Shown: positions 11,537-58,730, counted from the stretch's first letter. The stretch is 64,000 nt of DNA from Bacillota bacterium (GCA_044426045.1 JAWXUX010000011.1:760-64759), one strand, 5' to 3'. Notes: generated by a model from the sequence alone, not told the origin. Numbers and translations: made by a program.

Positions 11537-11549
11537 AAGGAAAAAAAAA

Positions 11550-11794
11550 GTGAAAGGTGAAAGGTAAAAGGTGAAAGGTGAAAGGTGAAAGGTGAAAGGT
11601 GAAAGGTGTGGTAGGCACTCGGCTTCGCCTCGTGCACCCCATTATATTTAGGTAGCAAAAAAGGAACGCTCCTATTTGAATAGTTACGTCCCTATTATGG
11701 ATTACAAATATAATTGAAAAGCACGAAGCGAAGCTGAGTGCATTACCACACCTTTCACCTTTCACCTTTCACCTTTCACCTGACGCGTAGCGTC
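11550..11794. repeat. Composite palindromic intergenic element, copy A (type 1 core)
   Basis: 8x GTGAAAG (one GTAAAAG), GTGTGGTAGG, hairpin GCACTCGGCTTCGCCTCGTGC, AT-rich core with AGGAACGCTCCT hairpin, hairpin GCACGAAGCGAAGCTGAGTGC, ATTACCACAC, 4x CTTTCAC, mini-hairpin GACGCgtaGCGTC. Lies between convergent PBP and GntR genes. An isolated heptamer at 11533-11540 contains the PBP stop. Confidence 0.9.
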
Positions 11795-15073: not shown

Positions 15074-15353
15074 GTGAAAGGTGAAAGGTGAAAGGTGAAA
15101 GGTGAAAGGTGAAAGGTGAAAGGTGAAAGGTGTGGTAATGCACTCGCCTTGCTCGTGCTTTCTATATTTCAATTTTGGCGGGCGTTGGGGACGGTACGCA
15201 CACATGGGTGCGACCCTACGCATGGAAATAGCTACAAACACGTTAAAACGCTTGTAGCTATTGTAGTTTTGTATTTAATTTAGGATGCACGGAGCGTTAG
15301 CGTAGTGCCTACCACACCTTTCACCTTTCACCTTTCACCTTTCACCTTTCACC
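15074..15353. repeat. Composite palindromic intergenic element, copy B (type 2 core, long variant)
   Basis: 8x GTGAAAG, GTGTGGTAATGCACTCG... hairpin, core with stem ATAGCTACAA/TTGTAGCTAT and a 49-nt GC-rich insert (15177-15225), ...GTAGTGCCTACCACAC, 5x CTTTCAC. The inner part is inverted relative to type 1. Confidence 0.9.
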
Positions 15354-35619: not shown

Positions 35620-35891
35620 GTGAAAGGTGAAAGGTGAAAGGTGAAAGGTGTGGTAGGCACTCGCTTTGCTCGTGCACCCTATTATATTTGGACAGTAAAA
35701 AAGGAACGTTCCTATTAAATAGTTACGTTCCTACAAGTGGTTACAAATATAATTGAAAAGCACGAGCGGTACGCGAGTGCATTACCACACCTTTCACCTT
35801 TCACCTTTCACCTTTCACCTTAAGCGTAGCGTTTCACCTTTCACCTTTCACCTTTCACCTTTCACCTTAAGCGAAGCGTTTCACCTTTCAC
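35620..35891. repeat. Composite palindromic intergenic element, copy C (type 1 core)
   Basis: 4x GTGAAAG, GTGTGGTAGG hairpin, core with perfect palindrome AGGAACGTTCCT, hairpin GCACGAGCGGTACGCGAGTGC, ATTACCACAC, 4x CTTTCAC, then two further blocks each made of a TTAAGCG(T/A)AGCGTT mini-hairpin plus heptamers. Abuts the PHP gene stop. Confidence 0.9.
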
Positions 35892-41055: not shown

Positions 41056-41329
41056 GGTGAAAGGTAAAATCTGAAAAATTAAAGTAAAAAGCTTTGCTTT
41101 AAGTGAAAAGTGAAAAGTGAAAAGTGAAAAGTGAGGTAGGCACTCGTTTCGCTCGTGCACCCTATTATATTTGGGCACTGAAATAGGGACGCCCCTATTT
41201 GAATAGTTGCGTTCCTTCTGCTAGTTGCAAATATAATTGAAAAGCACGAGCGGTACGCGAGTGCATTACCTCACTTTTCACTTTTCACTTTTCACTTTTC
41301 ACTTAACGCGTAGCGTTTCACCTCTCACC
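41056..41329. repeat. Composite palindromic intergenic element, copy D (type 1 core, GTGAAAA arm variant)
   Basis: Decayed heptamers, AAAGCtttGCTTT mini-hairpin, 4x GTGAAAA, GTGAGGTAGG..., core, ...CATTACCTCAC, 4x TTTTCAC, TTAACGCGTAGCGTT. Both the arm changes and the T>A change are mirrored on the other side. Ends 24 nt upstream of the recQ ATG. Confidence 0.9.
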
Positions 41330-45106: not shown

Positions 45107-45135
45107 ATTATAAGGCAAAGAGGGAGGGATGTCAA
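45107..45135 (-). promoter_or_regulatory. Sigma-A-type promoter of argH
   Basis: Minus strand TTGACA-N17-TATAAT (perfect consensus). Confidence 0.6.
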
Positions 45136-45160: not shown

Positions 45161-45358
45161 GTGAATAGTGAATAGTGAATAGTGAATAGTTGTGGTAATG
45201 CACTCGCTTCGCTCGTGCTTTCTATGTTTGGAAATTAGAATAGTTGCAAACACTTGAAATTGTTTGCAACTATTGTAGTTTTATATTCAATTTTGTATGC
45301 ACGGAGCGAAAGCGTAGTGCCTACCACAACTATTCACTATTCCCTATTCTCTATTCAC
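45161..45358. repeat. Composite palindromic intergenic element, copy E (type 2 core, GTGAATA arm variant)
   Basis: 4x GTGAATA, GTTGTGGTAATGCAC..., core stem ATAGTTGCAAACA/TGTTTGCAACTAT, ...GTGCCTACCACAAC, TATTCAC/TATTCCC/TATTCTC/TATTCAC. Confidence 0.9.
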
Positions 45359-45361
45359 TTT

Positions 45362-45386
45362 AAAAAATTTGCAAAGCAAATTTTTT
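45362..45386 (-). terminator. Terminator of the spoIIIA operon
   Basis: Perfect palindrome AAAAAATTTGCaaaGCAAATTTTTT overlapping the spoIIIAH stop. Confidence 0.55.
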
Positions 45387-45858
45387 AACTAACTGGAATA
45401 ATCTTCACGTTCGCATATGTCGCGTTGGTTTCGCTGGAGATTACTTCATAGATTTGTGCGACTTCGGTTTGGGTTAGTTCGTCGGCTTTGACAATTACGT
45501 TTATATCGTCGCTGTCGTATGACATTGTCACCACAACATCTTCAAAACCTTTTGCACCGATAAGGCTTTCAAGAGTTAGCTCGGCATCCATAACGGCGAC
45601 TATGCTCATTTTTTGTGCGGCGGCGTCGGCGAGAACTTCGGCGTCAAGCGATTCTGTTGCTATTATTGAATCGAGATTTAAAAGCTGTTCTTGTCTTGTT
45701 GTTGTGCGCTCGCTTCTGTATTCAGAAAAATAATCTGAAACTGTGATATCCTCGCTTGCCGTCACGTCTGTTGACAAAAGCACGTTCACATAAACTGTTG
45801 CGACAAGCAAAAACACTAAACACACTGATACTACTATTTTCTTTCTTTTTGACATCAT
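45385..45858 (-). CDS. spoIIIAH: Stage III sporulation protein AH
   Basis: 157 aa. N-terminal TM, F..YR.ER...R...L and LE.LI.AKGFEDVVV pattern as in SpoIIIAH. Last gene of the spoIIIA operon. Confidence 0.7.
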   Translation of the reverse strand: MMSKRKKIVVSVCLVFLLVATVYVNVLLSTDVTASEDITVSDYFSEYRSERTTTRQEQLLNLDSIIATESLDAEVLADAAAQKMSIVAVMDAELTLESLIGAKGFEDVVVTMSYDSDDINVIVKADELTQTEVAQIYEVISSETNATYANVKIIPVS

Positions 45859-53846: not shown

Positions 53847-54048
53847 GTGAAAGGTGAAAGGTGAAAGGTGAAAGGTTTGGTAGGCACTCGCTTCGCTCGT
53901 GCATTCAATTTATATTTGGGCAGTAAAAAAGGAACGTTCCTATTTGAATAGTTACGTCCCTACTATTGGTTACAAATATAATTGAAAAGCACGAAGCGAA
54001 GCTGAGTGCATTACCACACCTTTCACCTTTCACCTTTCACCTTTCACC
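53847..54048. repeat. Composite palindromic intergenic element, copy F (type 1 core)
   Basis: 4x GTGAAAG, GTTTGGTAGG hairpin, core, hairpin, ATTACCACAC, 4x CTTTCAC. The most compact type 1 copy. Confidence 0.9.
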
Positions 54049-55906: not shown

Positions 55907-56172
55907 GTGAAAGGTGAAAGGTGAAAGGTGAAAGGTGTGGTAGGCACTACGCTTCGCTCCGTGCACCCCATTATATTTGGCTAGTTTAATAGGAACGTTC
56001 CTATTGAATAGTTGCGTTCCTACAAGTGGTTGCAAATATAATTGAAAAGCACAAGGCAAAGCCGAGTGCATTACCACAACTTTTCACTTTTCACTTTTCA
56101 CTTTTCACTTTAAGCGTAGCGTTTCACTTTAAGCGTAGCGTTTCACTTTAAGCGTAGCGTTTCACCTTTTAC
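55907..56172. repeat. Composite palindromic intergenic element, copy G (type 1 core, mixed arms)
   Basis: Left arm 4x GTGAAAG but right arm 4x TTTTCAC (GTGAAAA type). Followed by 3 tandem 19-bp units TTTAAGCGTAGCGTTTCAC (56109-56165). Confidence 0.9.
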
Positions 56173-58516: not shown

Positions 58517-58730
58517 GTGAAAAGTGAAAGGTGAAAGGTGAAAGGTGTGGTAATGCACTCGCTTTGCTCGTGCTTTCAATGTTTAAAAATATAAATAGTT
58601 GCAAACAACTTTTGTCGTTTGCAACTTATTTTAGTTTTGTATTCAATTTTGGGTGCACGGAGCGTTAGCGTAGTGCCTACCACACCTTTCACCTTTCACC
58701 TTTCACCTTTCACCTTAGCGAAGCGTTTTA
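58517..58730. repeat. Composite palindromic intergenic element, copy H (type 2 core)
   Basis: GTGAAAA + 3x GTGAAAG, GTGTGGTAATGCAC..., core stem AGTTGCAAAC/GTTTGCAACT, ...GTGCCTACCACAC, 4x CTTTCAC, TTAGCGAAGCGTT. Confidence 0.9.

What the first reader, a model, noticed from the sequence alone, without database searches (positions are those of the whole stretch)
45161..45358. Compensatory substitutions inside the type 2 core hairpin
The type 2 cores carry a central stem-loop whose stem differs between copies while pairing is kept:
- Copy E: ATAGTTGCAAACA / TGTTTGCAACTAT.
- Copy H: AGTTGCAAAC / GTTTGCAACT.
- Copy B: ATAGCTACAA / TTGTAGCTAT, where TTG>CTA on one side is mirrored by CAA>TAG on the other.

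Type 1 cores behave the same way. They keep a palindrome that reads AGGAACGTTCCT in C, F and G, AGGAacgcTCCT in A, and AAATAGGGacgcCCCTATTT in D.

Structure is therefore preserved over sequence in at least three separate stems, which points to a functional folded nucleic acid rather than a decaying remnant.
Basis: seen in the sequence. Interest (0 to 1): 0.6.

Follow-up and report, generated by a model that had tools for sequence, protein, structure and literature searches.

The report
Terminator-like hairpins inside a repeat family
The paired substitutions are real: these hairpins sit in the cores of an abundant 200-base intergenic repeat and look like transcription stop signals kept in shape by selection, which is a known kind of role for bacterial repeats in an undescribed repeat family.

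Summary
Across 45 genomic copies, 98% of stem cells pair. All 47 cells changed on both sides still pair (8 pair types, no mismatch), while the loops vary freely.

The type 1 ("alpha") claim is half right. A longer hairpin, AGGRACG...CGTYCCT followed by a conserved T-run, does.

The elements are gene-less miniatures of a heptamer-armed cassette; two full copies in this genome carry a PF05635 (23S rRNA intervening-sequence protein) gene between the same ends.

The core hairpins most likely act as intrinsic terminators:
- The hairpin-to-T-run direction follows the flanking genes in 69 of 76 co-directional sites.
- Beta and alpha are enriched between convergent genes (49% and 27%, against 13% background).
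- A third core, gamma, has no fold and no orientation bias.
- Alpha carries G·U rather than A·C mismatches on the strand read with the flanking genes (69 to 15).
- A congeneric genome has ordinary terminators at three syntenic sites.

No transcript data could be consulted, so termination itself is inferred. Earlier reports of this scan described the same repeat family on other DNA of this genome.

The parts
45161..45189 (+). Heptamer arm of copy E, (GTGAATA)x4. It is complementary to the arm at 45324-45358.
   Evidence: Arm units match between the two sides in 124 of 136 genomic copies.
45194..45218 (+). 'AT-end' subterminal hairpin of copy E: GGTAAT-GCAC-TC-GC-TTC-GC-TC-GTGC.
   Evidence: The outer GCAC/GTGC is invariant, and the inner 2-3 pairs covary across 167 copies.
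45239..45274 (-). Type 2 (beta) core hairpin of copy E: 14-bp stem, 8-nt loop. The element's G-to-AT direction and the flanking genes are both on the minus strand.
   Evidence: covariation; flagged as terminator-like on the plus strand; whole element -102 kcal/mol, z = -18.
45299..45325 (+). 'G-end' subterminal hairpin of copy E, read here as its reverse complement: GCAC...GTGC-C-TACC.
45324..45358 (+). Second heptamer arm of copy E, degenerate (TATTCAC)n.
15228..15261 (-). Beta core hairpin of copy B, stem variant ATAGCTAC/GTAGCTAT, with one G.U on the minus strand.
58595..58626 (-). Beta core hairpin of copy H, followed on the minus strand by ATTTATATTT.
11661..11693 (-). Alpha (type 1) long hairpin of copy A. 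On the minus strand it reads AGGGACG...CGTTCCT followed by T-run, with a G.U pair that is A.C on the plus strand.
35701..35732 (-). Alpha long hairpin of copy C.
41185..41216 (-). Alpha long hairpin of copy D.
53929..53961 (-). Alpha long hairpin of copy F. Minus strand: AGGGACGTAACTATTCAAATAGGAACGTTCCT followed by TTTTTT.
55991..56021 (-). Alpha long hairpin of copy G.
45107..45135 (-). Consensus -35/-10 promoter-like site (TTGACA-17-TATAAT, 12 of 12) just downstream of copy E in the direction of transcription. E therefore lies between a stop codon (gene 45385-45858) and the next promoter.
   Evidence: This is a pattern match only.

Best explanation
**What the elements are.** The hairpins are the core modules of a roughly 200-nt intergenic repeat family, with about 180 copies in this 2.05-Mb Clostridia genome. 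Each copy has this layout:
- two inverted arrays of about four heptamers;
- two inverted subterminal hairpins (GCAC..GTGC), one preceded by GGTAG and the other by GGTAAT;
- one of three unrelated 80-85-nt cores, which I call alpha, beta and gamma.

Two full-length copies carry a PF05635 (23S rRNA intervening-sequence protein) gene between the same ends. The short copies are therefore gene-less miniatures of that cassette.

**What the hairpins do.** I propose that the alpha and beta core hairpins work in RNA as factor-independent transcription terminators for the flanking host genes. Alpha works in one direction. Beta is probably bidirectional. Purifying selection on the terminator stem is then what keeps the two arms complementary while stem sequence and loops change.

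**Shown:** the covariation, the T-runs, the orientation and context biases, the absence of both fold and bias in gamma, and ordinary terminators at syntenic sites of a sister genome.

**Inferred:** that transcription actually stops there, and how the elements spread.
For: 1. **Pairing is kept through double changes.** Beta: 98% paired, 47 of 47 doubly changed cells paired. Alpha long hairpin: 91.8% paired, 0 of 500 shuffles as high.
2. **A T-run follows the stem.** The alpha stem is followed by a conserved (A/T)TTTT run, with those columns at least 90% invariant. Beta has T-rich tails in both directions, 5-6 T of 9.
3. **The hairpin direction follows the genes.** Between co-directional genes, the hairpin-to-T-run direction follows the genes in 50 of 56 alpha copies (p = 1e-9). 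In 19 of 20 beta copies the G-to-AT direction, in which the hairpin is followed by a T-rich tail, follows the genes (p = 4e-5). The two families have opposite orientation relative to their shared ends, so the core sets the bias, not the ends.
4. **Gamma is an internal control.** It has no conserved fold (alifold 0; minimum free energy equal to shuffles), no orientation bias (20 of 36) and no enrichment at convergent sites.
5. **Genomic context fits.** Convergent intergenic regions are 13% of the background but hold 49% of beta (p = 1e-9) and 27% of alpha (p = 0.001). Divergent regions hold 2% and 7% against 13.5%.
6. **Mismatch type is strand-specific in alpha.** On the strand read with the flanking genes in 50 of 56 co-directional sites, alpha stems carry 69 G.U against 15 A.C cells, or 52 against 13 after collapsing identical stems. 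This is expected for an RNA fold of that strand.
7. **A sister genome has terminators at the same places.** In the same-genus genome G001, the syntenic sites of copies A, B and G hold no element but an ordinary hairpin plus T-run terminator. The ortholog of the gene next to E is followed by a different element whose core hairpin plus T5 faces that gene.
8. **Element-bearing regions have few other terminators.** Regions downstream of genes that hold alpha or beta have fewer terminator-like sites outside the element (29% and 36%, against 52% in regions without an element) and 96% and 86% with the element counted. This comes from a crude finder of my own.
9. **Copy E is placed where a terminator belongs.** It lies between a stop codon and a consensus promoter-like site.
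Against: - No transcript 3' ends could be examined.
- Alpha orientation follows the replication direction (65 to 4) at least as well as the gene direction. Of the 4 loci that separate the two, 3 follow replication. Because nearly all alpha copies share one orientation to the fork, part of the G.U excess could be a replication-strand mutation bias.
- Beta shows no G.U excess over A.C (9 to 7). Its tails are T-rich in both directions, so its 19 of 20 orientation bias is not explained by the T-run alone.
- U-tracts are short (4-6) and stems are AT-rich. The tool's simple terminator scan flagged the cores of E and H but none of the alpha cores.
- The top five pairs of beta (CAAAC/GTTTG) are almost invariant, which a plain terminator does not require.
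- Gene calls behind the orientation counts are a crude longest-ORF set of my own.
- Copies are related, so the shuffle-based statistics overstate independence.
Confidence: 0.6

Rival explanations
1. The core hairpins fold in single-stranded or cruciform DNA and are recognition structures for the machinery that copies or moves the element. This would resemble REP/REPIN hairpins recognised by RAYT, or the end hairpins of IS200/IS605. Selection would then act on mobility, not on host transcription.
For: - The element as a whole is REPIN-like: inverted subterminal hairpins with a GTAG-like 5' motif, and complementary arms.
- Beta stems are almost purely Watson-Crick with no strand asymmetry.
- Alpha orientation tracks the replication direction 65 to 4.
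- Sites differ between G000 and G001, so the family turns over.
Against: - Gamma copies (42) and the two PF05635-bearing cassettes share the ends but have no core hairpin, so a core hairpin is not needed for spread.
- Alpha and beta share ends yet have opposite end-orientation biases, which an end-determined strand preference cannot produce.
- Unrelated cores here and in G001 share only the layout of a hairpin followed by a T-run.
- No cognate RAYT was found. The one IS200-type TnpA has different hairpins, and a weak RAYT-like protein (35 bits against a cutoff of 80, HUH motif degenerate) has no element nearby.
Confidence: 0.15
2. Complementarity is maintained mechanically and without selection. 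Template switching within the quasi-palindrome during replication copies a change from one arm to the other, and a few master variants then amplified into subfamilies.
For: - Transversion-type swaps (U-A to A-U, C-G to G-C) cannot pass through a wobble intermediate.
- Stem variants go with loop subfamilies.
- The beta core is confined to this species, so it is young: 41 hits here, none in G001, and 1 weak hit in 119 other genomes of the order.
Against: - Loops diverge freely within identical stems.
- Alpha keeps many G.U pairs on one strand rather than being corrected to perfect pairs.
- Mechanical correction does not explain the T-runs, the orientation bias or the enrichment at convergent sites.
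Confidence: 0.1
3. The hairpins are RNA elements of another kind: a processing or stability signal (for example RNase III or 3'-exonuclease barriers, as for REP and Correia elements) or a binding site for a protein such as the PF05635 product, rather than terminators.
For: - Related PF05635 cassettes in 23S rRNA are excised by RNase III at their heptamer-bearing stem (PMC4990558, read).
- The near-invariant CAAAC/GTTTG top of the beta stem suggests sequence-specific recognition.
- Whole elements fold into very stable long hairpins.
Against: - The conserved T-run directly 3' of the alpha stem and the bidirectional T-rich tails of beta are terminator features.
- Ordinary terminators occupy the syntenic sites in G001.
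- There is no match to any Rfam family.
Confidence: 0.1

Closest known systems
REP / BIME / REPIN elements of Enterobacteria and Pseudomonas, mobilised by RAYT (from my own knowledge; also named in earlier scan notes)
   Same: Both are abundant intergenic palindromic repeats built from two inverted hairpins with a GTAG-like 5' motif. Both lie after genes and between convergent genes, and both have reported effects on mRNA 3' ends and transcription attenuation.
   Different: - The arms here are tandem heptamer arrays whose unit differs between copies.
- The two hairpins enclose an 80-85-nt exchangeable core.
- No flanked RAYT gene was found.
- The full-length relative carries a PF05635 gene instead.
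Correia repeat-enclosed elements (CREE) of Neisseria (PMC2649163; review PMC10969869, abstracts seen)
   Same: Both are MITE-like repeats of about 100-150 bp, with inverted ends and a conserved core, that are transcribed with neighbouring genes. CREE fold into hairpins and alter expression through RNase III cleavage and promoter or terminator activity.
   Different: There is no sequence relation. CREE have plain 26-bp inverted repeats and a TA duplication. Here the arms are heptamer arrays, there are subterminal hairpins and alternative cores, and no target duplication was identified.
23S rRNA intervening sequences carrying an S23p / PF05635 ORF (Coxiella burnetii, Leptospira; PMC4990558)
   Same: Both have a long stem containing tandem heptamers that encloses a PF05635 gene. 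Two cassettes in this genome have exactly that build and the same ends as the short elements.
   Different: The elements here lie between protein genes, not in rRNA. Most have lost the ORF and carry a hairpin plus T-run core instead. RNase III excision is untested.
Intrinsic (Rho-independent) terminators formed by dispersed repeats, such as paired uptake sequences (DUS/USS) in Neisseria and Haemophilus (from my own knowledge)
   Same: In both, a repeated sequence forms the terminator hairpin of many unrelated genes, and the stem is kept complementary.
   Different: There the repeat itself is the stem and has a second role in DNA uptake. Here the terminator is one module inside a larger composite element.
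Heptamer repeat arrays of Xanthomonas and Nostoc (GGGNATC; PMC4692102)
   Same: Both are heptamer arrays with a preference for four units. Both lie between aligned ORFs, close to stop codons.
   Different: Those arrays were interpreted as G-quadruplex formers. The units here (GTGAAAG, GTAATAG, GTGAATA, TTAAAAA) cannot form quadruplexes and occur as inverted pairs around hairpins.

Membership tests
Intrinsic (factor-independent) transcription terminator | Stable stem-loop in the transcript | tested here: met
   Alpha and beta cores fold at -18 to -22 kcal/mol, against -6 to -11 for shuffles. The helices are conserved and covarying.
Intrinsic (factor-independent) transcription terminator | U-tract immediately 3' of the stem | tested here: inconclusive
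   The alpha stem is followed by a conserved (A/T)TTTT run, 4-6 T long. Beta has 5-6 T of 9 on both sides. These tracts are shorter and less pure than textbook ones. The tool's scan flagged E and H but no alpha copy.
Intrinsic (factor-independent) transcription terminator | Lies downstream of a gene and points the same way | tested here: met
   69 of 76 copies between co-directional genes point the same way as the genes. The cores are enriched at convergent regions and depleted at divergent regions. The core lies about 117 nt after the upstream stop codon.
Intrinsic (factor-independent) transcription terminator | Transcripts end at the U-tract | not testable with these tools
REP / REPIN with RAYT | Inverted pair of short hairpins with a conserved 5' GTAG-type motif | tested here: inconclusive
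   The two hairpins are inverted and GCAC..GTGC is invariant. One end reads GGTAG-GCAC and the other GGTAAT-GCAC.
REP / REPIN with RAYT | A single-copy RAYT gene flanked by the repeats | tested here: not met
   PF01797 finds two genes. One is an IS200-type TnpA with its own, different hairpins. The other is a 261-aa protein scoring 35 bits against a cutoff of 80 for REP_Tyr_transpos, with the HUH motif degenerate and no element nearby.
MITE (miniature inverted-repeat transposable element) | Terminal inverted repeats and many dispersed copies | tested here: met
   About 180 copies, with matching arms in 124 of 136.
MITE (miniature inverted-repeat transposable element) | Target-site duplication | tested here: inconclusive
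   Flanks are often T-run + AA and TTAA-like, but no consistent duplication was seen. The syntenic intergenic DNA of G001 is too diverged to align base by base.
MITE (miniature inverted-repeat transposable element) | Full-length relative encoding a transposase | tested here: not met
   The full-length relatives with the same ends encode only a PF05635 four-helix-bundle protein.
MITE (miniature inverted-repeat transposable element) | Filled and empty sites between related genomes | tested here: met
   Sites A, B and G are filled in G000 and hold no element in G001.
PF05635 (IVP/S23p) heptamer-armed cassette / 23S rRNA intervening sequence | PF05635 ORF enclosed by a stem with tandem heptamers | tested here: not met
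   The copies under study have no ORF. Two full-length cassettes with identical end architecture do: C2:170094-170648 and C33:21690-22245, at 95 bits. The short elements are derivatives, not members in the strict sense.
PF05635 (IVP/S23p) heptamer-armed cassette / 23S rRNA intervening sequence | Excision from the transcript by RNase III | not testable with these tools
   Known for Coxiella (PMC4990558). There are no transcript data here.

The most novel reading that the evidence does not exclude
The heptamer-armed PF05635 cassette family acts as a mobile carrier of transcription terminators. Since this species split from its sister species, gene-less copies with interchangeable, unrelated hairpin plus T-run cores, set in either orientation between the same ends, have taken over the terminator position at roughly 140 gene ends, where the sister genome keeps ordinary terminators. 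The end hairpins would serve as the exchange or mobility sites, and the PF05635 protein as the missing factor.
Probability: 0.2. Interest if true: 0.75.

Novelty: new variant of a known kind. Interest (0 to 1): 0.5.

Why it matters
Dispersed bacterial repeats that double as terminators or RNA-processing signals are known (REP/BIME, Correia elements, uptake-sequence pairs). The general idea is therefore not new.

Three things are new here.
- One composite repeat family carries alternative core modules. Two are structured and orientation-biased, and one is unstructured and unbiased. That gives a natural internal control linking the fold to a role tied to the direction of the flanking genes.
- The family is tied to the PF05635 / 23S rRNA intervening-sequence cassettes, whose biology has been obscure for decades.
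- A sister genome has plain terminators at the same positions, which suggests fast replacement of terminators by repeat-borne ones.

If confirmed, genome annotation of such lineages should treat these repeats as transcription-unit boundaries. The system would also be a compact model for how selection maintains RNA stems in a multi-copy family.

Tried and rejected
- **Rfam.** No family matched at gathering thresholds over the whole window. Only chance-level hits (E = 0.14-0.43) appeared on copy E.
- **RAYT or IS200 as mobiliser.** I looked for one and rejected it on hairpin mismatch, sub-threshold score and lack of flanking copies.
Tested and not supported.
- **Strand-specific RNA signal in beta.** Not found: G.U 9 against A.C 7.
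- **Arm mismatches.** G against A units in alpha arms give 6 to 2 in favour of the non-host strand. That is too few to use and does not support RNA-level pairing of the arms.
- **In-situ compensatory changes at orthologous copies.** Not possible. G001 lacks beta cores altogether, and the syntenic sites are empty or hold a different element.
- **Literature.** Searches for a description of PF05635 cassettes as mobile heptamer-armed elements found only the Coxiella intervening-sequence paper and the heptamer-array papers.
- **My own terminator finder.** It also scores the AT-end hairpin plus TTTC tail, so its "with element" percentages are inflated for all three families, gamma included.

Full report
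**What is at the coordinates**

Window 45161-45358 is one copy (E) of a repeat that occurs eight times in the window. The window is contig C5:760-64759 of a 2.05-Mb, 39% G+C genome in 33 contigs. A conserved 1062-aa protein places the organism among uncultured gut Clostridia (Bacillota). The nearest named record is 93% identical at the protein level.

Every copy has the same layout:
- a tandem array of about four heptamers;
- GTGTGGTA;
- a small hairpin closed by GCAC/GTGC;
- an 80-85-nt core;
- the inverted hairpin, TACCACAC and the inverted heptamer array.

**Census and orientation**

A regular-expression census finds 130 complete copies. Profile searches find 94, 45 and 42 loci for three unrelated cores, which I call alpha, beta and gamma.

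The two ends are not identical. One reads GGTA-G-GCAC and the other, on the opposite strand, GGTA-AT-GCAC. That gives every copy a direction, which I call G-to-AT. Each core has a fixed orientation relative to the ends.

"Type 2" is beta seen in the opposite orientation.

**The type 2 (beta) stem**

I aligned the first 72 nt of all 45 beta cores (A1) and counted a 13-pair helix.
- 98.0% of cells pair, against 89.9 +/- 0.6 in shuffles (0 of 500 as high) and 27-46% when the partner is slid by 1-3 columns.
- Five pairs carry double changes.
- There are 14 further pair types against 10.1 +/- 0.7 (0 of 500). That is the measure the tool describes as robust to relatedness.
- RNAalifold predicts the same helix unaided.

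A count that does not depend on the tree gives the same answer. All 47 cells in which both partners differ from the consensus still pair (46 Watson-Crick, 1 G.U, 0 mismatched). They represent 8 distinct pair types. If the arms evolved independently, the seven Watson-Crick types alone would have a chance of about (1/3)^7 = 5e-4.

Complementary lower-stem variants include CTA/TAG, TTG/CAA, CCAG/CTGG, CGA/TCG, TCA/TGA, GTA/TAC and TCG/CGA. Some require transversions on both sides. The loop drifts in sequence and length: 16 copies with the identical stem have 11 different loops.

**The type 1 (alpha) stem**

On 82 full-length alpha cores (A2):
- The local palindrome (AGGAACGTTCCT and its extensions) is paired in 82.4% of cells, no better than shuffles (480 of 500 as high), with no excess covariation.
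- A longer hairpin, AGGRACG with CGTYCCT around an inner CTATT/AATAG, is paired in 91.8% of cells, with score, percentage and doubly changed cells above all 500 shuffles.
- RNAalifold on whole elements finds that same stem.
- Variant copies that lack the palindrome altogether, such as TAGGAACGCTA...TAGCGTTCCTA, keep only the long pairing.

The palindrome arises because the segment next to the 3' arm is a partial direct copy of the 5' arm.

**Other stems**

The subterminal hairpins keep GCAC/GTGC invariant. Their inner 2-3 pairs vary with compensation (GC/GC, GGC/GCC, GCG/CGC, GCC/GGC, AGC/GCT). Paired cells number 329 of 441 and 427 of 501, against 249 +/- 6 and 303 +/- 7 in shuffles.

The heptamer unit differs between copies (GTGAAAG, GTAATAG, GTGAATA, GTGAAAA, TTAAAAA). 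The two arms of a copy match in 124 of 136 cases.

**What the family is**

Two almost identical full-length cassettes, C2:170094-170648 and C33:21690-22245, have the same arms and end hairpins. In the G-to-AT direction they enclose a PF05635 (23S rRNA intervening-sequence protein) gene scoring 95 bits. The short elements are gene-less miniatures of that cassette.

Earlier reports of this scan reached the same reading for other windows of this genome. I re-derived it here.

The Coxiella intervening sequence has the same ingredients: an S23p ORF, a stem cut by RNase III, and tandem heptamers (PMC4990558).

A RAYT-type mobiliser was not found.

**What the core hairpins do**

Several independent lines point to intrinsic terminators.

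- *T-runs.* The alpha stem, read against the G-to-AT direction, is followed by a conserved (A/T)TTTT run. Beta has T-rich tails both ways.
- *Orientation.* Between co-directional genes, the alpha hairpin-to-T-run direction follows the genes in 50 of 56 cases (p = 1e-9). In 19 of 20 beta copies the G-to-AT direction follows the genes (p = 4e-5). Because alpha and beta share ends but are biased in opposite end-orientations, the core sets the bias.
- *Internal control.* Gamma has no conserved fold (alifold 0; free energy equal to shuffles). It is unbiased (20 of 36) and is not enriched at convergent sites.
- *Context.* Convergent regions are 13% of intergenic regions of at least 50 nt, but hold 49% of beta and 27% of alpha. 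Divergent regions hold 2% and 7%.
- *Mismatch type.* On the strand read with the flanking genes in 50 of 56 co-directional sites, alpha stems carry 69 G.U against 15 A.C cells (52 against 13 after collapsing identical stems, p = 1e-6). This is as expected if that strand folds as RNA. Window copies A and F show it: G.U on the minus strand, A.C on the plus strand.
- *Sister genome.* In the congeneric genome G001, the syntenic sites of A, B and G hold no element but an ordinary hairpin plus T-run terminator. The ortholog of the gene beside E is followed by a different family member whose core hairpin plus T5 faces the gene.
- *Position of E.* It lies between a stop codon and a consensus promoter-like site.
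- *Other terminators nearby.* A crude terminator finder of my own sees fewer independent terminators in regions that hold alpha or beta: 29% and 36%, against 52%.

**Caveats**

- No transcript data could be consulted. Termination is inferred.
- 84% of genes run with replication, and alpha orientation tracks replication 65 to 4. Of four loci that separate the two directions, three follow replication. A replication-linked cause, and a contribution of strand-biased mutation to the G.U excess, are not excluded.
- Beta shows no G.U excess (9 to 7). That fits a bidirectional terminator needing Watson-Crick pairs on both strands, but it fits a DNA-level fold equally well.
- The T-rich tails on both sides of beta do not explain its 19 of 20 orientation bias.
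- The top of the beta stem (CAAAC/GTTTG) is nearly invariant, for no reason I can give.
- Gene calls were a simple longest-ORF set.
- Copies are related, so shuffle statistics overstate independence.

**Distribution**

By BLAST, the ends occur in G000 and in the one other genome of the genus, and in none of 29 further relatives searched.

A covariance model of the beta core finds 41 copies in G000, none in G001, and one weak hit in 119 other genomes of the order. The beta core and all its stem variants are therefore confined to this species among the genomes searched. G001 has alpha copies and other hairpin plus T-run cores between the same kind of ends.

**Verdict**

The paired substitutions are real for type 2. 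For type 1 they are real in a different helix from the one named. The fold is functional, most probably as repeat-borne intrinsic terminators. This is a new variant of a known kind, not a new class of structured nucleic acid. The same repeat family has already been reported by this scan on other DNA of this genome.

Noticed in passing
window 15177-15225 (copy B); also G000 C5:43-224, C7:14126, C15:114904, C23:28614, C4:35555, C31:62875: A GC-rich insert of about 49 nt (...GTAGGGTCGCACCCATGTGTGCGTACCGTCCCCAACGCCCGCC, read in the element's G-to-AT direction) is nested at the same spot just after the beta hairpin in about ten copies, where it displaces the T-rich tail. Longer versions occur at C15:27817, C31:199993 and C17:485. 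It looks like a second, REP-like repeat that targets this position.
   Followed up: partly
window 35822-35890, 56105-56170; also 41305-41318, 58717-58730, 11783-11794: Outside the right arm, several copies carry one to three extra units of a small motif, AAGCGTAGCGTT (a mini-hairpin ACGC-nnn-GCGT), alternating with more heptamers. The arm region can therefore be reiterated.
   Followed up: no
G000 C2:117045-117760 (locus L001): One IS200-type insertion sequence (155-aa Y1 transposase) is bounded by its own hairpins, CCACCAGCTNAGCTGGTGG. It lies next to a half element and a stretch of CCAAAT-like short repeats.
   Followed up: partly
L106 3815-3910 (G001 C31, syntenic to window about 11540-11790): Where G000 has alpha copy A, G001 has a one-sided array of about 11 heptamers (TTTTGGA/TTTTGGG) directly next to an ordinary terminator hairpin. 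Heptamer arrays therefore also occur without the hairpin element.
   Followed up: no
window 45141 / 45385 and 58412 / 58814 compared with G001 contigs C10 and C29: Gene order between G000 and G001 breaks exactly at copies E and H (and F). At E the G001 contig continues with unrelated genes, so the elements coincide with rearrangement points. Some of the other breaks may only be contig ends caused by the repeats.
   Followed up: partly
G000 C14:46604 and C14:20302: Two beta copies have a 5' arm of one stem variant and a 3' arm of another (ATAGCGACGAAC with GTTTGCAACTAT; ATAGCTAGCAAAC with GTTTGAAACTAT). This suggests recombination between copies that breaks the pairing.
   Followed up: no
all families, e.g. 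window 45200-45232 (plus strand): Read from the AT end inward, the AT-end hairpin is always followed by a T-rich tract: TTTTCAATTATATTT in alpha, TTTCTATGTTT in beta, TTTCCATTATTT in gamma, TTTCAATTATTTATTT in the PF05635 cassette. The end hairpin itself is therefore terminator-like in that direction.
   Followed up: partly
beta cores genome-wide (alignment A1, columns 38-42 and 55-59): The five stem pairs next to the loop (CAAAC/GTTTG) are almost invariant in 45 copies, while the lower stem and the loop vary. I have no explanation for this.
   Followed up: no
G000 C16:11303, C15:28031, C7:14153, C4:129674: A few copies have arms built from different heptamer units on the two sides, for example GGTAATA on the left and AATTTTT on the right. 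The arms can therefore be exchanged or evolve separately.
   Followed up: no
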